A DNA stretch of 46,909 nucleotides, the filler included, from Sphacelaria rigidula (Eukaryota): assembly GCA_964200075.2 (NCBI GenBank). It is 2 parts of 2 records of this genome, joined end to end, with 100 filler letters (N's around TTAATTAATTAA, not from the genome) between each part and the next. Parts side by side here need not be neighbours in the genome. Positions count along the whole stretch, not along the records: positions 1 to 23,407 come from CAXNAA020000263.1; 1 more part is not named here. One strand, given 5' to 3'. Of this stretch, positions 7,176 to 41,125 are shown one piece after another; within the stretch, counting starts at the first letter, position 1; the number at the start of each line of letters is the position of its first letter. The position numbers were made by a program, and so were the translations under genes. Under the pieces are notes generated by a model that did no database searches, was not told the origin of the DNA, and worked only from the letters and a program-made list of their open reading frames with translations.

Positions 7176-8052
7176 AAGCTTGAAGCGTGCAACTTCTAAC
7201 TACTTGGTTTTAGTATTTCAACGCATTTTTTGGTGAATTTCACGTCAAGGCAAGAAACAATTTATGATATTTTCGAGTTTCTCGATCAACTTTTGTACAT
7301 GTGTTCCTTGGACTATTCCGGGACGCAGCATATTGTCTGTTATTCTTTTCAGGCATTGTGTACCAGCTTTCGGGATCTGTGTATTGGGACCCCCGGAAGC
7401 TGGTAGAGGACGTAGAATCTTGAAATCGTGTCAAGAATACAATCTGTCCATGTGAAGCATCAATACCTACGGAACTGCCAAGTTTGAGGGTGATCTGAGC
7501 TTTTCTACTCGAGATGAAAGAGGAGCCGTTACGAGGCTCCCTGGGTCTTTCGTGCGTATGATGAGTGGAATTTAGAGGACGCCAAGACTGCACATTACCG
7601 TAAAATCACGGTTTCGGGTATTCCTCGACCCCGTTGCAACCGTTTTCAAATATTTTTTCCCTGTTCGATTCCCGAGCTGTTGGTAGTTACCACGACTCGA
7701 GCATGTGGAAGTTCGGTGAAAATTGGACTCGTAGCTCGTGTTTTCAATTTCAGAACAGTTTGAAGGGCGCTGATTGGTCAAAGTACTTCGTCGCCCTTAG
7801 CGCTACCAGTGTGGCCCTGAACACATATTTGGTGATGTCACGCTCTTCGGCTGTTTATAGTGGTATGATATTATGTATGCGACTATTGTGTAGGTATTGC
7901 GAAAGACATTTGCCGATGACACAATTTTGGGTGATGAGCGTGAACCAGCTCGTAATACTTTTCGTTTTTTTCAAGGGATTACAGACACCCCGGGGGCCAT
8001 ATTGTCCCATCCCCTCCTCACGTATGTGCTGCGTTCATGATCTACTTCAAAA

Positions 8053-8118
8053 TTGATTTGATGGGTTGATTGATTCATTGTCGTGCTTGAACTGACATCC
8101 CAGCGATCCAGCTGTGGT
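8053..8118 (-). mobile_element. 5'-truncated SINE/LINE 3' end with (CAAT)n tail
   Basis: The reverse complement reads CCACAGCTGGATCGCTGGGATGTCAGTTCAAGCACGACAATGAATCAATCAA, homologous to 30091-30142 and 41148-41203. Confidence 0.7.
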
Positions 8119-9802
8119 CACGTGATGTGGCTAGGGCCAGTTGAAACGAATGCGATGCCCCTGAACACGCGAGTGGTCACTCGAGCGTATGCATCTTACT
8201 CGCTGATTCGAGGCCATCCTTCCCCCTCTCCCCGACGATGAGATGAGCATACAAGCTGATTCACGGTCATCACCCAGATGTGTCAGTCTTACTTTTCGTG
8301 CAAGTATTTGTAACAAGAAATGAAGCTCCTCTCATCCCCTCGCGCACTGCTGCAACGCCCAACCCCAGCTCTAGACGCGTGGACTTATTGATTGTGGTCT
8401 ACATGAGATGTTCCCGAAGTTTCAGCGCATAGTAGCGACGACAGGGCGCGCACGATCGTGCCTCCTGATCCAGGCATCTCTACAGTCGATACCGGAATGG
8501 CTTTTCTACAGATTGTCGTCCTCCAGAGGCGCCTGCAGAACTGATCTCTGTTTGTTTGTGAGCACTGTAACCTCCCAGGTGGTCATGATGCGGAAGTGAG
8601 TCCACTACCATATCCACATATGCATTCACTCACGGTGCACAGAATCTCGGCGGCTAGATGGCCGTTTGAGAGCATACAGACGGTATCGCTCAAAATCGGG
8701 GTTTGCTTTTGTTTAAATCGCTTGTGGAAGGAAAGGGGCTGTGCTTCGGTACACACACTGGCTGTGGTGTGCCCGACTGGTGCACCAGGTTTCACTTTGG
8801 TGCCTTGGGCGGCGGTCGAGAACTTCAAAGTCAAAAATGACGTGTAAATGTCGAAAATGGCACCGGTCAACCGTCGAAAGATACACCAGCTGCAGTTACG
8901 CCGCATAATCCTCGTACCAAGCCATACTGGCGTAACCGCTGCGCCCCTGCGGCAGCACAGGAGGGATGGGAACAAGTGCACAACCGTACTTGCCAGCGCT
9001 GTGGGTCTGGCCCCGCCACATCGCCCGGCCAAACGATATGCTGCCATGAATCATATGTCGGCATTAACAGGGCATCTAGTGTTGTGTTCCCAGTGCACGC
9101 CGTATTGGACTGCAGGCGACAGAAAACTGTGCACGATTGCACTGCAGAGCACGGTGCAGCAGCTTTGTACAGTAGTCACGCATGAGGCAAAGGGGTGCAG
9201 CACATCACACACTTTCATACGGTAATTTATGTGAAGTTTTCAGCTTCGAAGGCGGCGCAATCGGCTGTACAAAGCATGCATGCACAAAAGTGTGTCGTGT
9301 TACTTGCTCGTTAAAGCCAATGACCTAATTATTTTTCACGTGGACTGAATACATCATGCACTAGCCGGTACGCGTTCTGTTGGTCTCGTACCCTGAGCGT
9401 GGTCGCCACCTATCGGCGTTTCATTGTGCACGAGATGCATTAATGAAAAGCACCACTATTCAGATCACCACACGCGGAAAATCAACACTTTTTCAGCCAG
9501 AAATTTACACCGACGATGCCGCCCTGAGCGAAGCTTGCCACTGATGCCACGCGGTGGACCGGTACTCCATTGTGTCGGGCCCGCCGCTCGTGTGAACTGT
9601 GTCTACTTCACGGCTGATATCAGTCGGATGCTTGTGAAATGCTTCTTCTATGCGCACATTCCGATATTGGATTTTTTTTTTTTCCCGCGCACGACTGGTA
9701 TGTCATCAACAAATAACACGGGATTTTACGGATTGAGGACGGATTTTCTTCAGGCTGAATCTCGTGACCCTTGAGGCCGCTCCTCATGACAAACCAAAAG
9801 TT

Positions 9803-10650: not shown

Positions 10651-10868
10651 CATCACATGACCATTCCTGAACCAGGCACACGTCTCACACGACCATGTTT
10701 CAACCGGGCACAGGTCTTTCACGACCATGACTAACCCGGGCACAAGTATGGCATGACTATTTGTGAAGCGGGCACAGGCCTCTCACGACCACGTCCAACC
10801 CCGGCGCACGCCTCACATGACCATGTTTGAATCGGGCACACGATCACATGTCCATCGTCGAAGCGGGC
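10651..10868. repeat. Minisatellite, ~7 copies of a 31-32-bp unit
   Basis: Consensus approximately GGGCACAGGYCTYWCACGACCATGTTTSAACC, repeated head to tail. Confidence 0.8.
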
Positions 10869-15697: not shown

Positions 15698-17754
15698 TTC
15701 CACCATCAATAGCGAGTGTTTGTGTTACGTTTACCCTGATTGCACCCGTCTTGTGATCACGTCTGAATTCCTTTGCAACCAGTTGGTATGCGACAATTAA
15801 ACAACACGAGGAACCCATATGTTATTTCCATAATAAATCAAATGCCATGGCATGTACGAAATATGACCATGAACAAAACGCCTAGGTGACGAGAACCTAA
15901 GCCTGTCGACCCACTGAGGAAGGTGCTTCCCCTCCATTCACCCCGCGGTCTCGTGTTTGGGGACGGCTTTGGTTTTCTCCTAGAGTGATGTTTTACCCAA
16001 CGACCTGTGACGTGAGATGGTGTAACTCTAACGTGCCACCAGGTGTTGATCTTCTCGTTTGCCGAAAGCACTGTTACTCTGGGGTGTATGTGTCCAATGT
16101 GCCGGTGCTGAATCTACTCGATTTTGTGTGCTCCTGACTAGTGCTATTTTGCTCCAGCACCCCGGTTCCAGTCCATACGAAACGATCCATGTTCACCACG
16201 ACCACATACAGTAGGTTATCCCAGTTGCAAAGTTTTTGGTTTGAGTGGTCGTCACACACACGGGGGCGGTGCATATGGTGTATCCCTCTCCATACGTCGA
16301 GCCATACTCATTCGGGTAATCGGCATCAACTCTCGATGCATAGTACGGAGGACTGTCGAGTAAATGGCGCGGTTAATCATGGCGTCTTCGAAAGTCGTGT
16401 TTTTGTTTAACGTGGATGATGTGACCATGCGTTCGTTACGGACTGTCTAAAGAAATTCATCGAGATTGTCATGTACCGATGTTGAGGCGACCTGATTTTT
16501 TTTTATCTCCAACTGACACGAGATCATGTCTTGAAACCTGGGCTTCACTCACGCCATACCGCGACTTGGCAAAATCTTCACGATATGTGCTTCTCTTGCA
16601 ACGAGTTAACTTGAATACTTGTACTTCTCTACGTTTCGAAGTATCTATATTACGCAATCATCTCGTCTCTCCTCCTGTTTGCATTTAGGCTAAGAGTGCT
16701 TCGGAAGTCCAGCTTTCAGCAAGGTACTGGCGTTTGCTTCTCGCATGAAGGGGCGGAAGTGTTGGTGTTTGCTGCATTTGTTCTCACAGCCAGTTTCCAT
16801 CAGTTGCCTTCCATTCGTTATGGGGTCTTTCTGAGCTATCGCATTTGAGATGAGTCAATATTGAGCACACAATACATTGGATTTCTTATATGCTGTGTCG
16901 GTTTCTCGATTCCTTCATAAAAGGGTCGCAGTCGGTTGTTTTTCTCCGTTTTTGTAGTATAGTTGTCTCTACTTGTTCTTTGTCCGTACTTGTGTGTTGC
17001 ATGCATGTCAACGGGCTGTGCGGAAAATGGCCGTTTGGAATCATCTGTCGCCGAGATAACTGACTGCCTTTTTGAGGCCTGGGGTCCTCGGGCGGTTGTG
17101 TCTATACGCACCACAATCGCGGCAGCATCCACTAATGCAGAATGTTTCATAACGGTACTCATGGCAAGAAGGTTAGAATCCTGAGTCATGAAACTTCACA
17201 CACGCAAGTGGTCGAGGTTGAGTATAGGGGTTTTTGATATTCACATACATGTAGAAAATTTGTCAAGCTTTATGCATAACACGACTGGCGGCAACAAGGG
17301 GCGAGGTTCGAATTTCTTGACGAGGCTCGATATCATCCAAACATTCATCACTTGTTGAAAGCACGTAGTATTTTCTCTTTACCACAGAAACTACCAGCAG
17401 TATTTTATGTTTAGCAAATTGAATGTTTGACAGAGCAAAGGCCTAACTAGTCTCGTCACATAGTGGAGGCCCAAGCAAGATATGAACAGCCCATGCTCAC
17501 CATTTTCCTTGAAAAAAACTGTACGTCGCTTCTGACACTTTTGGCGATGTTCGACCCCGTGTTTGCATCCGTTTGATATCACCAGGCAGCGCCAAGAGGG
17601 ACAACCGGCCCCTCTTGTTCGGCCATCTGACAGAGGAACTTCTAGCAGCAGCCGAAATTGCGTGCGCCGAAATCGCTTGTTATGCTGACGCGGTGGCGAT
17701 GCTAGCTTAGCAGCGCCCCCCCGAGGGCTGCTTGACATTATACATACATATATC

Positions 17755-20592
17755 ATGGCGTGCGTCAACGTCGAGGAGCTTCCGGCGAAGAAGGCAGGGA
17801 TCGTTCATGGGGTGAACAATGAGTGCGGCAACGAGGACTGCTCCAAACGACCATCTGTTGGTGTACCAGGGAGTCGGTCAACAGAGTTCTGTGCCGACCA
17901 CGCCTGGTCGGGGATGATGAATGAAGTGAGCAACACATGCGTCATCGGTGGCTGCTCCAAACGACCATCGTTTGGTGTAGCAGGAAGCCGTAAGGCTGAG
18001 TTCTGTGCCGGCCACGCCGAGCCGTCGATGGTCGATGTTTGGAGTAAGAAGTGTGGCAACGAGGGCTGCTCTGAACAACCATCGTATGGTGTACCGGGGA
18101 GCCGGAAAGCGGAGTTCTGTGTCGACCACGCCGGACCTGGTTTGGTTGATATGAGGAGCAAAAAGTGTAGCAACGAGGGCTGCTCTAGACAACCATCGTT
18201 TGGTGTAGCGGGAAGTCATAAGGCTGAGTTCTGTGCCGGCCACGCCGAGCCGGCGATGGTCGATGTTTGGAGTAAGAAGTGTAGCAACAAGGGCTGCTCT
18301 AGACAGCCATCGTATGGTGTAGCAGGAAGTCGTAAGGCTGAGTTCTGTGCCGGCCACGCCGAGCCGGCGATGGTCGATGTTTGGAGTAAGAAGTGTAGCA
18401 ACGAGGGCTGCTCTAGACAGCCATCGTATGGTGTAGCGGGGAGCCGGAAGGCGGAGTTCTGTGCCGACCACGCCGGACCTGGTTTGGTTGATGTGAGGAG
18501 CAAAAAGTGTAGCAACGAGGGCTGCTCTAGACAGCCATCGTATGGTGTAGCGGGGAGCCGCAAGGCGGAGTTCTGTGCCGGCCACGCCAGGCCTGGTATG
18601 GTCAATATGATCAATGTAGGGAACAGACAGTGTGGCAACGAGGGCTGCTCTAAACAACCATCGTATGGTGTAGCGGGGAGCCGGAAGGCGGAGTGCTGTG
18701 CCGACCACGCCGGACCTGGTTTGGTTGATGTGAGAAGCAAAAAGTGTAGCAACGAGGGCTGCTCCAAACAACCATCGTATGGCGTAGCGGGAAGCCCCAA
18801 GGCGGAGTGCTGTGCTGACCACGCCGGGCCTGGAATGATCGATGTGAGGAACAAAAAGTGTGGCAACGAGGGCTGCTTTAAACGCCCATCGTATGGTGTA
18901 GCGAGAAGCCGGAGAGCAGAGTTCTGTGCTGACCACGCCAGGGCGGGGATGGTCAATTTGTGGAGTAAGAAGTGTGGCAACGAGGGCTGCTTTAAACAGC
19001 CATCGTATGGTGCAGCAGGAGACCGGAAGGCGAAGTTCTGTGCCCACCACGCCGTGTCTGGGATGGTCAATGTAAGGAGCAGGAGATGTGGCAACGAGGG
19101 TTGCTCGAAGAAACCATCGTATGGTGTAGCGGGAAGTCGGTCGGCGAGATTCTGTTGTAACCACGCGAGTGTGGGGATGGTTGATGTGAGGAGCAAAAAG
19201 TGCGGTCACGAGGGCTGCCCCAAACAACCATCGTTCGGTGCAACAGGAAGCCGGAAGGCGGAGTTCTGTGCCGACCACGCCGGGCCTGGTATGGTCGATG
19301 TGAGGAGCAAAAAGTGTGGCCACGAGGGCTGCCCCAAACAACCATCGTTCGGTGTAACAGGAAGCCGGAAGGCGGAGTTCTGTGCCGACCACGCCGGGCC
19401 TGGTATGGTCGATGTAAGGAGCAAAAAGTGTGGTCACGAGGGCTGCCCCAAACGCCCATTGTATGGTGAAGCGGGAAGCCGGAACGCAGAGTCCTGTGCC
19501 GACCACGCCAGGGTGGGGATGGTTCATTTGTGGAGCAAGAAGTGTGGCAACGAGGGCTGCTCCAAACAGCCATCGTATGGTGTAGCGGGAGGCCGGAAGG
19601 CGGAGTTCTGTGCCCACCACGCCGGGTCTGGGATGGTAAATGTTAGGAGCAAGAAGTGTGGCAACGAGGGTTGCTCCAAACAGCGATCGTATGGTGTAGC
19701 GGGAAGCCGGAACAAGGAGTTTTGTGTCGACCACGCCGGTCCTGGAATGATTGATTCAGGGAGCAGAAAGTGTGGCCACGAGGGCTGCTCCAAACGCCAA
19801 TCGTATGGTGAAACGGGGAGCCGGAAGGCGGAGTTCTGTGCCGATCACGCCGGGGCGGGGATGATCGATGCAACGAAGGAGAAGTGTGGCAACGGGGGTT
19901 GCTCCAAACGACCATCGTACGGTGTAGCGGCAGGCCGGAAGGTGGAGTCATGCGACAAGCACGACGAGGCGAGGATGTTCGATAAGTGCGACAACAAGGG
20001 CTACGCGAATCGGTGTGTGTACAGCATTGATGACGTTGAACAGTGGAACGCATGCCAATATGATGCAAATCACACAATGGCCTCCACCTCTAGAGCAACC
20101 AAGCGTGGGCAACAGGGAGGCATTTTCGATCAAGTTTCCACCCAGGACAGACAACCCAATCATTCCACTAGTCACGATGGCGGTGTCGGTGATATCGGGT
20201 TCACCCCTCTTCTACTCGTCGCTTCTGAACTTGTTGTTGGCGCGCCCTCGCAACCCGCCGAGGGTGCCAAAGGAGGACAGGAGGCGAGGCCGCACACAAG
20301 GGTGAAATTGGAGGAGTCTGCCTCCCTTCAGCACCCCAGGCAGAGCTTGCGAATGAGGGTCGGCGTGGTGGCGTACTCTGATGATGGTGAGAACCGCAGG
20401 ATTGGCAGTAACTCCAGCGACAGTTGTGATGGGAGAATGAAGAAACGAATTTGCAAGATACCGTCGATGGTTCGTGAACACATCCCGACAGGAGACACTG
20501 CGATGGATGCTTCTTCAGTGGTACTCGATGGAATAGGGGAAGACGTGAAAATGGAGCTGGCAGTTTTGGCTCCGTTTCACCCCCTCGTGTAA
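17755..20592 (+). CDS. EsV-1-7 domain (cysteine-rich zinc-finger-like repeat) protein, 945 aa
   Basis: Uninterrupted ATG-TAA ORF with 19 complete plus 1 degenerate 38-aa repeats C-x4-C-x16-C-x2-H-x12 (e.g. CGNEGCSKQPSYGVAGSRKAEFCADHAGPGMVDVRSKK). This is the motif of the Ectocarpus virus protein EsV-1-7 and the brown algal IMM family. The low-complexity C-terminal tail carries VKLE/VKME motifs and a basic MKKRICK patch. An upstream exon cannot be excluded. Confidence 0.93.
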   Translation: MACVNVEELPAKKAGIVHGVNNECGNEDCSKRPSVGVPGSRSTEFCADHAWSGMMNEVSNTCVIGGCSKRPSFGVAGSRKAEFCAGHAEPSMVDVWSKKCGNEGCSEQPSYGVPGSRKAEFCVDHAGPGLVDMRSKKCSNEGCSRQPSFGVAGSHKAEFCAGHAEPAMVDVWSKKCSNKGCSRQPSYGVAGSRKAEFCAGHAEPAMVDVWSKKCSNEGCSRQPSYGVAGSRKAEFCADHAGPGLVDVRSKKCSNEGCSRQPSYGVAGSRKAEFCAGHARPGMVNMINVGNRQCGNEGCSKQPSYGVAGSRKAECCADHAGPGLVDVRSKKCSNEGCSKQPSYGVAGSPKAECCADHAGPGMIDVRNKKCGNEGCFKRPSYGVARSRRAEFCADHARAGMVNLWSKKCGNEGCFKQPSYGAAGDRKAKFCAHHAVSGMVNVRSRRCGNEGCSKKPSYGVAGSRSARFCCNHASVGMVDVRSKKCGHEGCPKQPSFGATGSRKAEFCADHAGPGMVDVRSKKCGHEGCPKQPSFGVTGSRKAEFCADHAGPGMVDVRSKKCGHEGCPKRPLYGEAGSRNAESCADHARVGMVHLWSKKCGNEGCSKQPSYGVAGGRKAEFCAHHAGSGMVNVRSKKCGNEGCSKQRSYGVAGSRNKEFCVDHAGPGMIDSGSRKCGHEGCSKRQSYGETGSRKAEFCADHAGAGMIDATKEKCGNGGCSKRPSYGVAAGRKVESCDKHDEARMFDKCDNKGYANRCVYSIDDVEQWNACQYDANHTMASTSRATKRGQQGGIFDQVSTQDRQPNHSTSHDGGVGDIGFTPLLLVASELVVGAPSQPAEGAKGGQEARPHTRVKLEESASLQHPRQSLRMRVGVVAYSDDGENRRIGSNSSDSCDGRMKKRICKIPSMVREHIPTGDTAMDASSVVLDGIGEDVKMELAVLAPFHPLV

Positions 20593-20944
20593 GTGTCAAG
20601 ATGAACGCGAGTTGGCCTTATGATGACGTGCTCGCTGCACGCTGATCTGAGCCCAGCGCCAGTTTACTCTGGAGCGTTTGGTAGAATATTCACATGGCCT
20701 GGTCGTGGTGTCGTGGATGAGAGCGACAGGCACTTATGATCGACATCTGGCGTGAGTGGCAGTAAGATAAAATATTACAAGTAGTTCGACACCGGGTCAG
20801 ACATAGCTTGAACATTGTTTCCTCGACTGGAACGGGCTCTGCCATCCGTTCAAGATCTCTCGTTGCAACTGCCCCGTCCCCCGCTGTCTCTACTCCCTTG
20901 TTGGGGCAACAGTAGTAGCCGATCGTTCTTCATGGGTTTGACTA

Positions 20945-23036
20945 CAATATATTCTCAAAATATAATAGTCGATCATATTGGAATTTTGCGATATAGTGCC
21001 GGCGTAATATATATTTGTACCCTTGGAGTGCTCACGTATTACGCGCCCAATATCTATTGGTACTGTGGGGTCGAACACACATTGTCCCATCAATATATAT
21101 CGGGGCAGCGTGGGCGACAGCATATTGCACGACCAATATATATTAGGGTCGCATTGATGAGAACATATTGACCGGTCAATACGTATTGGATATTATAAGT
21201 ATGGTGTGCGCTTTGAGAAAGATCCAAACGTGATGGATGCCAGAGCCCGTGCAGATTGGGAAAGCTTGAAAGGGAGCCGCAGTAGTTCGCATGCATTACT
21301 ACGGAGAGTTGTAGACTGCGTCTGATATGTATCACACCCTGGACTAAACAATATGTTTCCAATATATATTAGTCGATCATATTGGAATTTTGCGATATAT
21401 TGTCTGTGTAACCTATATTGGTACCCTTAGACTGCACATGTATTGCGCGCCCAATATATATTGATGTCATGGGACTGCATACATATTGCCCGCCCAATAG
21501 ATATTGGTACTATTGGGTTGAACACATGATGTCCCATCAATATATATTGGGGCAGAGTGGGCGACAACATATTGCACGACCAATATATATTAAGGTCGCA
21601 TTGATGAGAACATATTGACCGGTCAATTTATATTGGGTCTGCGTGGGTGACAATGTATTGGCCGGTCAATATATGTAGTAGATATTATAAGTATCGTGTA
21701 CGCTCTAGGAGAGATCAAGACGCAATGGATGCCGGAGCCCGTGCAGATTGGGAAAAGCTTTAAAGGGAGCCGCAGAAGTTCGCGTGCATTACTGCGGAAA
21801 GTTGTCGAATGCGTTCGATATGTATATATATATATTATATATACTGGTTCGAAAATATGGTGACAGAATAGGCGATCCGGTATACATGACTCCTGATACC
21901 TATCTGGTCACCGGTGCGGGGCCGCCCATCCCCTTTCCAGCATGTAATATAAATATCTTGGCTGAACATCACGACGACAGAAAACGCGGGTCGATATGCG
22001 CCTTTTGGTACCCCTGTGGTCACCGGGGCTGTGTTGCTTATACCCTGGACAACATAGTATGTTCCAATATGATACCAATACTTTTTATTGGAGCCAGCGC
22101 AAACATTGTCCTTTCAATATATATTGTGCGTGCCGGCCGTGTATGTATTGAAGTGTCAATATATATTGAGTCGAGGCGATGCGTAGCATATTGTTATCGT
22201 AATATATATTTAACGCAAACCATGCAGAAGTATTGCTTTTCCAATATATATTGCGCAAGCTGATCGGATAGCAATTGTGCAGCCAATATATACTGAACAC
22301 GCTTGCGGAGGAATACATGAAGCATTTTTGGCATATAAAATACGTCTTTGAATGGCACCCGCGAACAAAGAAATGCCCCCACAATACTTACTCCAATACA
22401 CTTCCCAATATATATGTTGAAGATCAATATATTTTGCTACATCAACATGTTTGTGACCAACGGTTCCCTCGTGTATTGTCCGCTCAATATATATTGGCGC
22501 TTCGGGTGTCGAGTATATTGAATCGTCAATATATACTGACCTCGGGTGGCAGCAAATATATTGCCCGATAAATATATATTGGTGCCTTCTCGCACCAACA
22601 TATTACTCGGCCAATATATTGAGGTGGTGCGTGTCGTGACATATTGTTCGGTCGATATATATTGCATGTCGCGAGCCTTGATATATTGATGGCACAAAAT
22701 ATATTGACCCTCTCTCGTGTCATCATATTGCTCGCCCATTATATGTTGACCACCCGATGCCTCGATACATTGAGCGGGCAATACATAATACATATTGTAT
22801 CGTCTAGGGTGTGATATAAATATGGTGACAGAAGAGGCGACCCGATATTAATGCCTCCTGATACCTATCTGGCCACCATTGCGGGGCCGCACATCCCCTT
22901 CTCAGTATGTAATGAATATATCTTGGCCAAACATCACGATGACAGAAAACGCGGGTCGGTATGCGCGCTTCAGTACCCCTGTGGTCACCGGGGCTGTGTT
23001 GCTTATACCCTGGACAATATAATATGTTCCAATATA
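20945..23036. repeat. Composite non-coding repeat-spacer array (42-43-bp period, ~25 units) with block duplications
   Basis: CAATATATATTG-type boxes start at 21005, 21048, 21091, 21134, 21177; 21409, 21452, 21495, 21538, 21581, 21624, 21667; 22115, 22157, 22200, 22242, 22284; 22485, 22527, 22570, 22612, 22653, 22695, 22737, 22779. Each is preceded by ATATTG-like + N6 and followed by a variable spacer. Block 20967-21330 is duplicated at 21370-21825, and block 21853-22070 at 22818-23035. Confidence 0.9.
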
Positions 23037-23047
23037 ACAGCTTGGAT

Positions 23048-23373
23048 TCGTTATTGAGGTTCGACATTTTAATGAGTTTCAACTCGAAAACAATGCTTTC
23101 CCTGACCTAAAGTCATGACCAATGAATTTCACATGAACGACCTCATGCCCTCCGACCTCCTAGGAACTGTTTCGGGGGTTGCCCGTCTTCCGTGCCCCGA
23201 AAACGTATGTTCGAAAGCACCAATATCGGGGCGAAAAAGGGGACGTTTTCAGTCCGAAAAGAAGGTCGGCGGGCATGTGGTCGTCCCTGTGAAATTCATT
23301 GGTCATGACTTCAGGTCAGGGAAAGCACTGTTTTCGAGATGAAACTCATTAAAATGTTGAACCTCAAAAACGA
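23048..23373. mobile_element. MITE-like element with ~113-bp highly similar TIRs
   Basis: TCGTTATTGAGGTTCGACATTTTAATGAGTTTCAACTCGAAAACAATGCTTTCCCTGACCT... pairs with ...AGGTCAGGGAAAGCACTGTTTTCGAGATGAAACTCATTAAAATGTTGAACCTCAAAAACGA. Confidence 0.88.
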
Positions 23374-23407
23374 TCGGGTCTTATATGGTAGCAATACTTA
23401 ACAGCAA

Positions 23408-23507
23408 NNNNNNNNNNNNNNNNNNNNNNNNNNNNNNNNNNNNNNNNNNNNTTAATTAATTAANNNNNNNNNNNNNNNNNNNNNNNNNNNNNNNNNNNNN
23501 NNNNNNN
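23408..23507. other. Artificial scaffolding gap: N44-TTAATTAATTAA-N44
   Basis: Exactly 100 bp with a central six-frame stop linker. This is an assembly construct, so the true distance is unknown. Confidence 0.95.
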
Positions 23508-27748: not shown

Positions 27749-27758
27749 NNNNNNNNNN
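27749..27758. other. Assembly gap (10 N) within poly-C/poly-G tracts
   Basis: N run flanked by homopolymers; the flanking sequence is unreliable. Confidence 0.95.
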
Positions 27759-29040: not shown

Positions 29041-29417
29041 CAAGGGCAGGTCGAGTATAGTATGTACTTTTGAAATACTCGGGTAAAATACCCAAGTATT
29101 CACTTTACACATATTTCCAGTAGATTGTGTACGGCCTCAAATACTCCGCTCGAATTTTGGGTAGATTGAGTACGGCCTCATACCCTCCACTCAAATTTTG
29201 GGTAGGTTGAGTACGGCTTCATACCCCCCACAAATTTTGAATAAGTACTCCCAGTAATGCTCGAGTATAGAGTATCACTTGGGTATAACCTCAATACTCT
29301 ATTCAATTTTGGGTAGATCGAGTGCGGCCTCGATAACTATATTCATATCTTGGGTACTAAAGGTATGACTTTTCAAAAATACCGAGTTTTGAGTATACTC
29401 TACTCGATCTGCCCTTG
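29041..29417. mobile_element. hAT-like MITE, family B, with internal ~40-bp tandem repeats
   Basis: TIRs CAAGGGCAGGTCGAGTATAGTAT / ATACTCTACTCGATCTGCCCTTG. 8-bp flanks CATGTGTG / TATGTGCG. Internal GTAGATTGAGTACGGCCTCA...AATTTTGG units x3-4. Confidence 0.85.
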
Positions 29418-37035: not shown

Positions 37036-37981
37036 TTATAAAGAAAGCGGAATTGAGTAGTAGGTAAGTTGGCACTCATCAGGTGTCGCCCGCAAATCCA
37101 TTGCGATCGAAACATTTACTCCACCACTGTCTGCGCAGACTTTGTGTGTTGCAGCTGTCTCTACTGTTGCTGGTACAGTTCGCTGGCTCCGCCTGCTACT
37201 CAAGTCTCCTCCGAGACGCCAAGCTCGGTATTGATCCCATCCCACCTTTCCCCGAACGTTAACTGTACTCCACTGTTGTGCCGTGTCATGCCCTACTGTT
37301 GTGAATGTTTTTTGCCGCGTTTTCCGCAGAGAGCCAGTCGGCAGGACGGGTGTAGGAGTGTAGCATATACCCCACCGTGGTTGGCCAAGCGGTGGAGATC
37401 TTTTGAAAGGGCCGCTATAAGAAGAGGACCGCGACGAAGCGGAGAGTTAACCGAGAGAGGCAAGGGCTTCGACCTAGTCATCCGGTGGGAACAAAGCGAA
37501 GGAACAACTGAGGTTCAATACAGCCTCAGAAAAGTGTTTCCGCAGGGGAGGTCCTTCTGGTCGACTCAGTGAAGGCGTGATTGGCTGTGCTGGTGTGGGA
37601 CAAAGCGGAGAGAGACACTGAGGAAAAGTTCGTGACGGAAGCCCGGACCGAGAAACACCAAAGGCTTTGCTGTAACCCACTGCTCGACACACATCAGTTC
37701 GAACCGCCGACCTCGTCGCAAGGGTACGGCTCGAGAAGAGCGTGGGCTTCATCACAAGCAACGCGATTGCTCGGCGAGACTCGTTGAACATTAGGAAGGA
37801 GGCGTTTTGCTTTGCTTCCGGGCTTTCAAGCGGTGCAGACGCGACGGCGCGCGGGGCGTGTCATCATCTAATCCGCCCTGCTAGGACGGCTGTCACGACC
37901 GTGGGACACAGCATTTAAATCGACCACACATACTCACACACACCTGCAGAGTTTCATATACTATACATCTTGCAGGAAAAT

Positions 37982-38247
37982 ATGGCAGCAAGTACACCCT
38001 TCTACGAATTGTCTTTCACTGTGGAGGCCAACACGGGGCACGGAGAAGTCATTTACGTTTGCGGGTCCTGTCCGTCGTTGGGGTCGAAAGACCCCTCCAG
38101 GGCGCTGAGGTTGGTCACAGACCCTTCCAGCTACCCACTGTGGAGCTCAGAGCCGATTCCCGTGCCTTTGGGGCAACGGGTCACCTATCGATATTGCATC
38201 GTGGCCGGTGGAAAATTGAAGCGATGGGAAGAAATTTCCGCTGACAG
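37982..38247 (+). CDS. TPS: CBM20 carbohydrate-binding domain, first coding exon of a probable trehalose-6-phosphate synthase/phosphatase
   Basis: LSFTVEANTGHGEVIYVCGSCPSLGSKDPSRALRLVTDPSSYPLWS...VTYRYCIV...RWE fits the CBM20 pattern (F-x-V...GE...G...LG...YPxW...YrY...WE). Donor AG|GTGGGT, phase 2. Confidence 0.85.
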
Positions 38248-39000
38248 GTGGGTCGAGAGCAGTTGGAATAGGGTGGTAATCCTCTTGTGGAGGAGGAGGG
38301 CGGGGGTTGCGTTGTGTGGCCATGCGTAGGTGCTCTGGATATCGTGAAACTGATAACGGGGTACGATTCGAGAGAACTATGGTCGTGATACCGATGGCTG
38401 TGCCGTCGCGATGCAGGAGGAAATTTTAGGCCTATGCATCGGAGTATGTGCTGTTGGACTCGGCCGGGTACGACACATGTTCTGTCGTAAATTTTGAAAA
38501 ATCGACTTGCACTACAACTTGGCGCTGCCAGTGCTTATTCATGTATCATGTTCGTGAGAGACAGTCCAGCATGGGGGTACTGTCGTGTACCCACGGAGCG
38601 CAACCAAGTTTTATGTCGGCAGTTTGTCACAGCGGGCGTACAAGTGGAGATAATTGAGGAGTGAGATATAGGATACACACAAGACACGTTAAGGCCCAAA
38701 GGAAAAATGATGAGTCTAGGTTTACGACTAAGTCACGGACGACGGTTTTGTGGTAACACGCGCCTTGCCTGCGCCCAGCCCATCAGGGGTAAGACCGGTG
38801 TGAACGCAAATGGCAAACGGTGGTCACCTGGGTAATAATAGTTGTCTTCACACATACTGAACATAGTTGTGGTACACTGTATTTGATGACGAGTAGGGGG
38901 CGGAACAACTGCACGTCTCTCCCAAGGCGTTTACGTGTGCAGGTTGACGCGACTTGTTCACCACGTTCTATGGTTGACACCTGTTCATATTTGTTCGAGA

Positions 39001-39410
39001 CTAACACCTTAGTCCCAACTCTAACAAGCGCAAAGCATGCCGAAAACCCTCAGGCATAGGGGTGGGGGGGGGGGGGGGGGGGGGGGAGGGGGGGCCCCCC
39101 GAGAAAAGAGGGGGGGGGGGAGGAACAAAGGGGGGCGAGGGGGCGCAATGGGGGGGCGNNNNNNNNNNACCCAGGGTGCATGCGTGCGGGCGTGTGGGCG
39201 GGGGCGGTCGGGGTGGGGGGTGGGGGGGGGGGGGCGTACTGGGGTAGCCCCAGACTAAAGTATGCGTTGGCGGAGAACAAATCGGCGCCAATTGGCGCTA
39301 ATTGGCGACGGCGCTGATCCGGAACAAAAATGCGTCCTGCCCACTCACTCTTGCGGGCTCATGGGATGATGAGACCACGAAGATCCGGTTAGATTGTCCG
39401 CACTGAAGAT
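39001..39410 (+). repeat. Dispersed repeat related to 40908-41125, interrupted by G-tracts and an assembly gap (N at 39159-39168)
   Basis: GCATGCCGAAAACCCTCAGGCATAGGGG vs GCATGCCGAGAACCCTCGGGCAAGGGGG; AAGTATGCGTTG...AAATCGGCGCC vs AAGTGTGCGTTG...AAATTGGCGCC; TGTCCGCACTGAA vs TGTCTGCACTGAA. Confidence 0.65.
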
Positions 39411-40907: not shown

Positions 40908-41125
40908 TAACCCTAACCCTAACCCCCACCCTCACCCTCACCCCAACGGAGGCATGCCGAGAACCCTCGGGCAAGGGGGGTGTCACGTGTTCCCAACGGG
41001 AAGTGTGCGTTGCGAGACCTCAAATTGGCGCCGCAGGCGCAGATTTCGATGAAAATGCGTTGTGCGTATGCTAGGAGAACATATCCGCTATTACAGATGC
41101 GGATTTCTGTGTCTGCACTGAAACC
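40908..41125 (+). repeat. Dispersed repeat headed by telomere-like (CCCTAA)/(CCCTCA) units
   Basis: TAACCCTAACCCTAACCCCCACCCTCACCCTCACCCC, followed by a body homologous to 39001-39410. Confidence 0.65.

What the first reader, a model, noticed from the sequence alone, without database searches (positions are those of the whole stretch)
20945..23036. Eukaryotic repeat-spacer array: two conserved boxes, two variable spacers, strict 42-43-bp period
Seen: ~25 units in four runs (5+7+5+8). Each unit is [~ACATATTG]-N6-[CAATATATATTG, a perfect palindrome]-N15-16. The boxes and spacer lengths are conserved while both intervening segments are GC-rich and mostly different, e.g. GCGCTTCGGGTGTCG, ACCTCGGGTGGCAGC, GTGCCTTCTCGCACC, CATGTCGCGAGCCTT, ACCCTCTCTCGTGTC. 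Runs 1-2 have an exact 43-bp period and runs 3-4 average 42 bp. An ordinary minisatellite would be expected to decay evenly along the unit. Established: alternating conserved/variable units are the architecture of CRISPR and dual-spacer TIGR arrays, and also of iteron or transposase-binding subterminal arrays. Inference: either (a) phased binding sites, since ATATTG-N6-CAATAT is a dyad and 42 bp is about four helical turns, or (b) a transcript processed into ~42-nt units, with ATATTG-N6-CAATAT folding as a stem-loop. Caveat: some spacers in runs 1-2 resemble each other (GGGCAGAGTGGGCGA / GGTCTGCGTGGGTGA), which suggests origin by old tandem duplication. No Cas or Tas gene is present.
Basis: partly seen in the sequence, partly recalled or inferred. 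Interest (0 to 1): 0.82.

Follow-up and report, generated by a model that had tools for sequence, protein, structure and literature searches.

The report
Phased repeat array inside abundant transposon
The 42-43-base repeat array is real, but it belongs to a very abundant mobile-element-like repeat whose "spacers" recur in the same order in many other copies, so it is most likely a row of protein-binding sites in a transposon and not a guide-RNA array.

Summary
There are 25 units in four runs (5+7+5+8) with periods of 41-43 bp. Two AT-rich boxes are conserved (1.3-1.5 bits per position). The two GC-rich spacers are near random (0.2-0.4 bits). In three DNA runs, 7,233-8,949 contig pieces lie on the stretch, and summed depth rises 100- to 2,000-fold where the repeat begins. 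Twelve listed pieces span 3-4 units at about 88-93% identity, so other genomic copies carry the same spacers in the same order. Two paralogous copies in the window differ by whole units, and their boxes (87/100 identical) and spacers (82/92) have decayed equally. The box/spacer contrast is therefore inherited from an ancestral element and is not maintained at this locus. The layout fits one copy (21333-22813, bounded by a 27/32 inverted repeat) nested in an older copy, which a foldback MITE also interrupts 370 bp from an artificial contig joint. Best reading: phased protein-binding arrays of a non-autonomous DNA transposon, working like CACTA subterminal repeats and resembling tandem-repeat-containing MITEs. 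The superfamily is undetermined. Binding and mobility are inferred, not shown. Interest is low to moderate.

The parts
20940..21332 (+). Older ('outer') copy, left part. It holds run 1 (5 units, box 2 at 21005, 21048, 21091, 21134, 21177) and the non-array segment A (about 21191-21332).
   Evidence: In a gapped alignment to 21344-21828, boxes are 87/100 identical, spacers 82/92 and A 122/145. Summed depth in the DNA runs jumps within 20882-20975.
21333..22813 (+). Putative nested ('inner') copy of the same family, 1,481 bp. Order: terminal inverted repeat, run 2, A', (AT)n, B, run 3, X, run 4, terminal inverted repeat.
   Evidence: The inverted repeat 21325-21356 / 22790-22821 matches at 27/32, score 22 against a maximum of 20 in 2,828 random window pairs from the region. 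It lies exactly at the two points where the outer copy's A and B' are separated. Three contigs of run X4 start to match at 21333, each with a different upstream sequence (table 7).
21395..21681 (+). Run 2: 7 units, exact 43-bp period (box 2 at 21409 to 21667).
21682..21852 (+). Segment A' and an (AT)n microsatellite (21818-21843).
   Evidence: (D10, D11)
21853..22070 (+). Segment B, 218 bp. Its last 30 nt or so resemble the left terminal repeat (TAT-ACCCTGGAC...GTTCCAATAT).
   Evidence: 88% identical to B' at 22818-23035. Terminal motif hits at 22039 and 23004.
22101..22300 (+). Run 3: 5 units, periods 42/43/42/42.
22301..22470 (+). Segment X, non-array but still repeated in the genome; it holds two degenerate boxes (22406, 22425).
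   Evidence: summed depth 3,688-7,898 in X1 against about 20-44 in the flank
22471..22791 (+). Run 4: 8 units, periods 42/43/42/41/42/42/42.
22818..23035 (+). Segment B' of the outer copy.
   Evidence: In other copies B is preceded by (AT)n-ACTGGTCAGA, as in the inner copy (table 7, place 22818).
23036..23385 (.). Foldback MITE-like insertion (arms 23048-23161 and 23260-23373, 91% complementary). It is itself the most abundant part of the stretch.
   Evidence: I1; depth up to 85,301 / 387,152 / 220,804. After it the outer copy resumes: ATATGGTAGCAATACTT against ATATGATACCAATACTT after B, 15/17, reached by 0.3% of random windows.
23408..23507 (.). Artificial joint: N44, TTAATTAATTAA, N44. The array lies 370 bp from the end of its contig.
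17689..20592 (+). Neighbouring single-copy ORF with 19 EsV-1-7 cysteine-rich repeats. It is not part of the repeat family.
   Evidence: Pfam PF19114, E 4.8e-267, 19 stretches. Single-copy-like depth in 20600-20881.

Best explanation
The array is the internal or subterminal repeat region of a very abundant, dispersed, non-coding repeat family, most likely a non-autonomous terminal-inverted-repeat DNA transposon. The window holds one copy (21333-22813) inserted at the AT-rich A/B junction of an older copy of the same family. A foldback MITE also interrupts that older copy. Each 42-43-bp unit carries three ATATTG half-sites: ATATTG, N6, CAATAT (a dyad), then a second ATATTG abutting it to form the 12-bp palindrome. 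I infer that these are cis-acting binding sites for the transposase, or an accessory DNA-binding protein, of an autonomous partner. At about four helical turns apart they would lie on one face of the helix for cooperative assembly at the element ends. The spacers only need the right length. The boxes, being the only sequence shared between units, also serve as points of unequal exchange that add or remove whole units. Shown: high copy number, shared spacer order between copies, even decay of boxes and spacers in present copies, whole-unit differences, and an inverted repeat at the breakpoints. Inferred: protein binding, selection on boxes and spacing in the ancestral active element, mobility and superfamily.
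For: (1) High copy. In the three runs X1, X3 and X7 (X7 guessed DNA; X1 and X3 of no recorded kind), 7,233 / 8,949 / 8,295 contig pieces lie on 20600-23400 at 88% identity or more. Summed word depth is 18.6-43.9 / 75.7-183.3 / 24.4-57.9 in the flank 20600-20881, against 2,933-31,644 / 16,942-178,278 / 6,738-85,316 in 20976-23043. The tool warns that this is not a copy number. Identity classes in X1 are 739 / 2,017 / 3,514 / 963 (99+, 95-99, 90-95, under 90), the spread of a diverged dispersed family. More than 1,900 loose-end rows exist, of which 24 are shown. (2) Same spacers elsewhere. Twelve of the 32 listed pieces lie inside runs, are 138-196 nt long, span 3-4 units and differ at only 11-19 letters (table 8). 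Units with unrelated spacers would differ at roughly 65 of 150 letters, given spacer identity of 0.29-0.36. Up to 92 / 89 / 83 distinct contigs cover single places. (3) Even decay. Between the two paralogous copies, boxes are 87/100 identical, spacers 82/92 and segment A 122/145. Of the 12 listed single-letter differences from the family majority that fall inside units, 8 are in boxes. In 6 of these the family keeps the box consensus and the window has lost it. A frequent AT insertion in other copies, carried by a minority of the contigs at that place, also restores the box at 22612. Only 40 of 196 rows were shown. (4) The copies differ by whole units (43 nt and 45 nt), with the alignment gap edges inside boxes. 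(5) Nested layout. The 27/32 inverted repeat lies exactly at the two breakpoints, score 22 against a null maximum of 20 in 2,828 pairs. X4 contigs break at 21333. The outer copy resumes after the MITE. (6) Spacer length varies only between 41 and 43 bp, although spacer sequence is at random-level identity. That argues for a past constraint on spacing (inference). (7) Known precedents exist for the anatomy: CACTA subterminal repeats bound by TNPA (PMC2613891, passages) and tandem-repeat-containing MITEs with ordered repeat variants and a conserved 12-nt palindrome (PMC3879986, abstract and passages).
Against: No full-length second copy, empty site or autonomous partner could be inspected, because no genome is held. 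The contigs behind one search are short and only the best-supported rows are printed. The target-site duplication is not diagnostic: TA/TA or AT/AT in an AT-rich context, and no 3-bp or clean 8-bp duplication. All four runs have the same orientation, so the arrays next to the two putative ends are not mirror images as in a textbook TIR element. The outer copy lacks the tip (CACACCCTG) of the terminal repeat. B and B' each end in a terminal-repeat-like stretch followed by run-3-type sequence. This can also be read as a head-to-tail repeat of about 965 bp. No transposase domain is present in 61 of 67 ORFs of at least 120 aa. Protein binding was not tested at all.
Confidence: 0.6

Rival explanations
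1. Non-mobile complex satellite. The family is a higher-order tandem repeat (run+A units of about 400-490 bp; B, run 3, X, run 4 units of about 965 bp) amplified by unequal crossing-over. The 43-bp units are an older layer of the same process.
For: run1+A / run2+A' and B / B' are direct repeats lying head-to-tail. After B' and the MITE, run-3-type sequence starts again. The locus lies at the end of an unplaced contig. 'Goes back' and 'skips' joints show copies with other unit numbers (table 5).
Against: Thousands of distinct contig pieces, spread over 88-100% identity and with many different loose ends, fit dispersed diverged copies better than homogenised arrays. This model needs two separate rearrangements (loss of B between A and run 2, and an odd run 4/B' junction). 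Those happen to be bounded by a 27/32 inverted repeat, which a single insertion explains. X4 contigs break at 21333 with differing flanks.
Confidence: 0.2
2. Same repeat family, but the boxes have no protein partner. They stay alike because short gene-conversion or unequal-exchange tracts start in the palindromes and homogenise them, while the spacers escape (molecular drive without selection).
For: Whole-unit gains and losses have their edges in boxes. A palindrome as a hotspot for changes in array length was proposed for DTC84 (PMC3879986). No constraint on boxes is visible in the present copies.
Against: It does not explain why spacer length is held to 41-43 bp while spacer sequence is randomised. 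It also does not explain why box 1, which is not palindromic on its own, is kept at a fixed 6-nt distance.
Confidence: 0.13
3. Guide-RNA array. The runs are transcribed and cut into units of about 42 nt, whose variable segments target other nucleic acids (CRISPR/TIGR-like).
For: The conserved-box / variable-spacer architecture is present. Local hairpins such as AUAUAUUGAAUCGUCAAUAUAU can form. One 1,245-nt contig of a run guessed to be RNA runs from the neighbouring gene's 3' end into run 1 without a difference.
Against: The spacers and their order are shared by many genomic copies, so they are not locus-specific acquisitions. For the 22 N15 spacers there are 2 matches with at most 2 mismatches elsewhere in the window, against 1-7 for shuffled spacers. 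There is no effector-like domain and no Rfam family. The strongly negative fold z-scores (-8.0, -3.4) come mainly from long-range pairing between palindromic boxes of different units, not from one stem-loop per unit. Boxes decay as fast as spacers at this locus.
Confidence: 0.02
4. Host cis-regulatory or chromatin platform. The arrays, spread by the transposon, are bound by a host multi-repeat DNA-binding protein, for example of the EsV-1-7 type, and act in silencing or gene regulation.
For: A 19-repeat EsV-1-7 ORF ends about 350 bp upstream. An Ectocarpus Tc1/mariner transposase carries an N-terminal EsV-1-7 domain, thought to be a zinc-finger class (PMC12477816, passage). Earlier unchecked notes of this scan link EsV-1-7 repeats to nuclease fusions.
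Against: With a family this abundant, adjacency to one gene is expected by chance. The gene is single-copy and lies outside the repeat. No binding data exist.
Confidence: 0.04

Closest known systems
Subterminal repeat regions of CACTA (En/Spm) transposons, bound by TNPA-type proteins
   Same: Many copies of a short conserved motif, direct and inverted, are separated by non-conserved sequence over hundreds of bp next to the ends. The two ends are asymmetric. The motifs can pair into stem-loops and have AT-rich and GC-rich portions. They are cis-determinants of transposition (PMC2613891, passages: 4 repeats in 159 bp and 24 in 732 bp in Tgmt*). The putative terminus here starts with CAC.
   Different: The terminus is CACACCC, not CACTA/CACTG. 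No 3-bp target-site duplication is seen. Spacing here is strictly periodic (41-43 bp). All runs share one orientation. A third internal run is present. No tnpA/tnpD-like gene is at hand.
Tandem-repeat-containing MITEs (DTC84 of Donax trunculus, pearl elements of oysters)
   Same: A high-copy non-autonomous element carries an ordered array of repeat variants whose positions are fixed while copy number varies. Each repeat holds a conserved 12-nt palindrome in a low-variability segment. A microsatellite lies beside the array. Flanks hold short inverted repeats (PMC3879986, abstract and passages).
   Different: Their core repeats are longer than the units here and differ only by diagnostic changes, with up to 5 per element. 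Here units are 42-43 bp and the spacers are fully different, with 20 units in three runs in one copy. The putative TSD there is AA. There is no sequence similarity.
Subterminal transposase-binding motifs of TA-targeting pogo-like elements and their MITEs (Lemi1/Emigrant)
   Same: Proteins of the autonomous element bind both the TIRs and repeated subterminal motifs of a MITE (PMC1636448; title and start of abstract seen in a search listing only). A TA flank is possible here. Tc1/mariner MITEs are the most numerous DNA transposons in Ectocarpus (PMC12477816).
   Different: The TA duplication here is ambiguous. The element is far larger than typical MITEs, and its arrays are far longer and periodic.
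CRISPR and TIGR repeat-spacer arrays
   Same: Conserved repeats alternate with variable segments of fixed length.
   Different: The spacers are not unique to the locus; they are copied with the whole element many times over. There is no effector gene and no evidence of processing. The host is a eukaryote. Boxes decay at the neutral rate at this locus.
Iterons of plasmid and viral replication origins
   Same: Phased direct repeats at an integral number of helical turns bind an initiator cooperatively (recalled, not checked in a call).
   Different: Iterons are few, nearly identical over the whole repeat, sit next to a rep gene and occur once per replicon. This array is part of a dispersed genomic family. 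Three scans of viral contigs found no related array.

Membership tests
Non-autonomous TIR DNA transposon (class II) | Many dispersed copies in the genome | tested here: met
   7,233-8,949 contig pieces per DNA run, summed depth 100- to 2,000-fold above the unique flank, and many different loose ends. Dispersal as against clustering is inferred from the variety of contigs and flanks, not mapped.
Non-autonomous TIR DNA transposon (class II) | Terminal inverted repeats at sharp family boundaries | tested here: inconclusive
   There is a 27/32 inverted repeat at 21325-21356 / 22790-22821, above all 2,828 random pairs. Three X4 contigs break at 21333. Only one candidate element was seen, and the outer copy lacks the tip.
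Non-autonomous TIR DNA transposon (class II) | Target-site duplication of a length typical for the superfamily | tested here: inconclusive
   TA/TA or AT/AT are possible. 3 bp gives TAT against ATA. 8 bp gives 6/8. All lie in an AT-rich microsatellite context.
Non-autonomous TIR DNA transposon (class II) | Autonomous partner encoding a transposase with the same ends | not testable with these tools
   No genome is held. No transposase domain was found in 61 of 67 ORFs of the window.
CACTA / En-Spm superfamily | CACTA/CACTG termini and a 3-bp target-site duplication | tested here: not met
   The terminus reads CACACCCTGGAC. The 3-bp flanks are TAT and ATA.
CACTA / En-Spm superfamily | Reiterated direct and inverted subterminal motifs | tested here: met
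   compared with PMC2613891
CRISPR/TIGR-type guide array | Spacers specific to the locus and acquired independently | tested here: not met
   Other genomic copies carry the same spacers in the same order (table 8: 12 pieces spanning 3-4 units with 11-19 differences). Runs 1 and 2 share spacers.
CRISPR/TIGR-type guide array | Linked effector or processing genes (Cas, Tas) | tested here: not met
   Pfam on 61 of 67 ORFs of at least 120 aa found only EsV_1_7_cys and CBM_20. The six ORFs left out overlap the EsV-1-7 repeat in other frames. The contig ends 370 bp to the right, so genes beyond it are unseen.
CRISPR/TIGR-type guide array | Transcription and processing into unit-length RNAs | not testable with these tools
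   Only contigs were available, and no run is on record as RNA.
CRISPR/TIGR-type guide array | Spacer matches to targets | tested here: not met
   Within the window only: 2 hits against 1-7 for shuffles. Genome-wide and viral targets could not be searched.
Plain minisatellite / satellite | Units derived from one another and decaying evenly along the unit | tested here: not met
   Among units, boxes have 1.3-1.5 bits and spacers 0.2-0.4 bits. Between paralogous copies, however, decay is even.

The most novel reading that the evidence does not exclude
The phased ATATTG arrays are landing pads for EsV-1-7 cysteine-rich repeat proteins. A transposase or a host protein built of such repeats would read the periodic boxes, which would make the transposon family and the expanded brown-algal EsV-1-7 gene family a matched DNA-array / repeat-protein pair. 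Such a pair could serve transposition or, like KRAB zinc fingers in animals, transposon control. The 19-repeat EsV-1-7 gene ending 350 bp upstream would then be more than a chance neighbour.
Probability: 0.04. Interest if true: 0.75.

Novelty: new member of a known kind. Interest (0 to 1): 0.22.

Why it matters
It removes a tempting false lead, a eukaryotic CRISPR/TIGR-like array, and shows why. A conserved-box / variable-spacer layout can be inherited wholesale from an ancestral mobile element and copied many times over. For brown-algal genomics it flags an abundant, apparently undescribed repeat family that breaks assemblies. Its regular arrays (three half-sites per 42-43 bp, 20 units per copy) would be a convenient substrate for finding the cognate DNA-binding protein. 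If the partner turned out to be an EsV-1-7 repeat protein, that would give this enigmatic domain family a function. That link is only a low-probability possibility.

Tried and rejected
- Whole genome: none is held. Copy counts, ends, empty sites and the autonomous partner could therefore not be examined.
- Sequencing runs: no RNA holder listed. Nine rows hold 28-40% of the sampled words.
- Run X4 is only guessed to be RNA. Its flank-to-array depth ratio (114 against 2.9-364) differs by orders of magnitude from the DNA runs, and one error-free 1,245-nt contig reaches from the gene's 3' end to 21145. This is a weak hint of read-through and is not counted as evidence of expression.
- Viral contigs: ATATTG-N6-CAATATATATTG gave 6 loci with a single box each and no array. 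A two-unit pattern and a 23-nt stretch of B gave 0 loci.
- Metagenome contigs: two adjacent boxes at the right spacing gave 2 loci. Both are unrelated satellites, one with a 21-bp period and one a near-perfect 42-bp tandem.
- Earlier findings of this scan: nothing by place, by two sequence look-ups or by words. One search failed on a word limit and was corrected.
- Rfam: one sub-threshold chance hit outside the array.
- Coding repeat: ORFs cross runs 3-4, where the 42-bp period is a multiple of 3 and the stop-free AT boxes keep frames open. They have no Pfam hit, runs 1-2 have a 43-bp period, and decay is even. Rejected.
- LTR/TRIM reading (B and B' as LTRs around runs 3-4): other copies have A-(AT)n before B, and B' is followed again by run-3-type sequence. 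Rejected.
- Helitron reading: the 3' end lacks CTRR. Rejected on sequence alone.
- Literature: the box sequence occurs in 0 papers. [quoted passage not shown] The TE library itself may not be among them, and the window's species may differ.
Full report
**1.

The region was read directly. The 12-bp palindrome CAATATATATTG, with up to one mismatch, occurs 20 times in the 46.9-kb window against 0.10 expected. None of 100 shuffles reaches 20, and 19 of the 20 lie in 20945-23036.

Anchoring on this box gives 25 units in four runs of 5, 7, 5 and 8. Periods are exactly 43 bp in runs 1-2 (10 intervals). They are 42/43/42/42 in run 3 and 42/43/42/41/42/42/42 in run 4. Box 2 has at most 2 mismatches in 22 of 25 units.

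| Segment | Information (bits/position) | Mean pairwise identity | GC |
|---|---|---|---|
| Box 1 (ACATATTG) | 1.34 | 0.74 | 0.26 |
| Box 2 (CAATATATATTG) | 1.47 | 0.81 | 0.18 |
| N6 spacer | 0.37 | 0.36 | 0.65 |
| N15 spacer | 0.19 | 0.29 | 0.57 |

Box 1 equals the right half of box 2. Each unit thus carries three ATATTG half-sites, arranged forward, 6 nt, reverse, then forward directly abutting. N6 is partly conserved, with C and G at its two middle positions in 72% and 68% of units. In some units the whole ATATTG-ACCGGT-CAATAT is a perfect 18-bp palindrome.

**2. The runs are parts of a larger repeat**

- Run 1 plus a 140-bp segment A (20940-21332) is paralogous to run 2 plus A' (21344-21828).
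- A 218-bp segment B (21853-22070) recurs as B' (22818-23035) at 88% identity.
- The array does not recur elsewhere in the window.
- At 23408-23507 the window holds N44, TTAATTAATTAA, N44. This is an artificial joint between contigs, so the array lies 370 bp from the end of its contig. Reading that linker as a six-frame stop spacer is from recall.
- The left neighbour is a single large ORF with 19 EsV-1-7 cysteine-rich repeats. This fits a brown-algal or related origin.
- Pfam scans of 61 of the 67 ORFs of at least 120 aa found only that domain and one CBM_20. The six ORFs not scanned overlap the EsV-1-7 repeat in other frames.

**3. The stretch belongs to a very abundant family that shares the spacers**

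No genome is held for this window. I therefore laid public-run contigs on 20600-23400.

| Run | Contig pieces at ≥88% identity | Summed depth, flank 20600-20881 | Summed depth, 20976-23043 |
|---|---|---|---|
| X1 | 7,233 | 18.6-43.9 | 2,933-31,644 |
| X3 | 8,949 | 75.7-183.3 | 16,942-178,278 |
| X7 | 8,295 | 24.4-57.9 | 6,738-85,316 |

Depth is higher still over the foldback element at 23044-23137. The tool warns that summed depth is not a copy number, so I take it only as "hundreds to thousands of matching pieces". The rise begins inside 20882-20975, where similarity to run 2 begins.

Twelve of the 32 listed pieces lie inside runs. They are 138-196 nt long, span three to four units and differ at only 11-19 letters. 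With unrelated spacers about 65 differences per 150 nt would be expected. Other genomic copies therefore carry the same spacers in the same order.

**4. Boxes are not protected at this locus**

A gapped alignment of the two paralogous copies gives 87/100 identical box positions, 82/92 spacer positions and 122/145 positions in segment A. The two copies differ by whole units (43 nt and 45 nt), with the gap edges inside boxes.

Twelve of the listed single-letter differences between the window and the family majority fall inside units. Eight of them are in boxes. In six of these the family keeps the box consensus and the window has lost it. An AT insertion, carried by a minority of the contigs at that place, also restores the box at 22612. 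Only 40 of 196 rows were printed.

The contrast between conserved boxes and free spacers was therefore already present in the ancestral element and has been inherited. Present copies decay evenly. The constant spacer length (41-43 bp) despite randomised spacer sequence argues that spacing mattered in that ancestor. This last point is inference.

**5. The layout fits nested insertions**

- A 32-nt inverted repeat lies exactly at the two points where the outer copy's A and B' are torn apart (21325-21356 and 22790-22821). It matches at 27/32 and its core is CACACCCTGGAC....
- It scores 22, against a maximum of 20 in 2,828 random window pairs from this palindrome-rich region.
- In the inner copy A' is joined to B through an (AT)n tract. 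Contigs from other copies show the same A-(AT)n-B junction (tables 5 and 7).
- Three contigs of run X4 begin to match at 21333, each with a different upstream sequence.
- After B' there is a 350-bp foldback MITE-like insertion with arms 91% complementary. Behind it the outer copy resumes with ATATGGTAGCAATACTT. That matches what follows B at 15/17, a level reached by 0.3% of random windows.

The simplest account is one 1,481-bp copy (21333-22813) inserted into an older copy of the same family, which is also hit by a MITE.

The weak points are these:
- The flanks (TA/TA or AT/AT) are not diagnostic in this AT-rich context.
- The outer copy lacks the tip of the terminal repeat.
- All four runs point the same way.
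- B and B' each end in a terminal-repeat-like stretch. A head-to-tail (satellite-like) reading therefore remains possible.

**6. The guide-RNA idea**

- The 22 N15 spacers have 2 matches with at most 2 mismatches elsewhere in the window, against 1-7 for shuffled spacers.
- Rfam finds nothing.
- The RNA folds are far more stable than shuffles (z -8.0 and -3.4). The predicted pairs are mostly long-range pairings between the self-complementary boxes of different units, not one hairpin per unit.
- Three scans of viral contigs and one of metagenome contigs found no related array.

**7. Mechanism proposed**

The boxes are cis-acting binding sites for the transposase or an accessory DNA-binding protein of an autonomous partner element. 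The dyads suit dimers. A spacing of about four helical turns puts all sites on one face for cooperative assembly at the element ends. The spacers are free in sequence but not in length. The boxes double as homology for unequal exchange, which changes unit number.

- Shown: abundance, shared spacer order, even decay, whole-unit changes, and the inverted repeat at the breakpoints.
- Inferred: binding, past selection, mobility and superfamily.

**8. Comparison with known systems**

It works most like the subterminal repeat regions of CACTA elements. Those carry reiterated direct and inverted motifs over hundreds of bp, are asymmetric between ends, and are bound by TNPA as cis-determinants of transposition (PMC2613891, passages). 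Membership fails on the terminus (CACACCC, not CACTA) and on the 3-bp duplication.

In anatomy it is very close to tandem-repeat-containing MITEs such as DTC84. Those have ordered repeat variants at fixed positions, a conserved 12-nt palindrome per repeat, a microsatellite at one side and variable repeat number (PMC3879986, abstract and passages).

In Ectocarpus, Tc1/mariner MITEs (about 12,000 copies) and EnSpm (6,366 copies) are abundant, and 94 'Unknown' families exist (PMC12477816, passages). Neither the box nor the terminal motif occurs in the five supplementary texts held for that paper, and the box occurs in no paper searched. I therefore file the array as a new member of a known kind.

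**9. Most novel reading left open**

The same paper notes a Tc1/mariner transposase with an N-terminal EsV-1-7 domain, thought to be a zinc-finger class. Earlier unchecked notes of this scan link EsV-1-7 repeats to nuclease fusions. A 19-repeat EsV-1-7 gene sits next to this array. A matched pair of repeat protein and DNA array is not excluded. With so abundant a family, however, adjacency is expected by chance, and I give this about 4%.

Noticed in passing
window 23036-23385: Foldback MITE-like element (114-nt arms, 91% complementary, 98-nt loop) inserted at an ATAT/TA site in the outer repeat copy. Its arms have the highest summed depth of the whole stretch in all three DNA runs (up to 85,301 / 387,152 / 220,804).
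   Followed up: partly
window 23408-23507 (also N10 at 27749-27758 and 39159-39168): N44, TTAATTAATTAA, N44 is an artificial six-frame-stop linker. The window therefore joins at least two unrelated contigs, and what lies right of 23407 is not the array's true neighbourhood.
   Followed up: yes
window 17689-20592 (+): A 967-codon open frame with 19 EsV-1-7 cysteine-rich repeats (114-bp DNA period, 18.6 copies by TRF). A contig of a run guessed to be RNA runs from its 3' end into run 1 of the array without a difference. The transposon copy may therefore lie in the gene's 3' untranslated region.
   Followed up: partly
window 40908-40947: Short interstitial telomere-like repeat, (TAACCC) x6.7 with variants.
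   Followed up: no
window 10653-10868 and 29120-29239: Two other small tandem arrays: a 32/64-bp period x6.8 at 68-73% matches, and a 41-bp period x3 at 85%. They are unrelated in sequence to the array studied.
   Followed up: no
window 37919-38329 (+): An ORF fragment with a CBM_20 starch-binding domain (E 4.9e-15). This is the only other Pfam hit in the window.
   Followed up: no
window 22113-22128: Many contigs (20-42 per DNA run) match only up to, or only from, the box at 22115-22126, and then continue with two other conserved sequences. The box is thus shared with at least one further repeat context in the genome.
   Followed up: no
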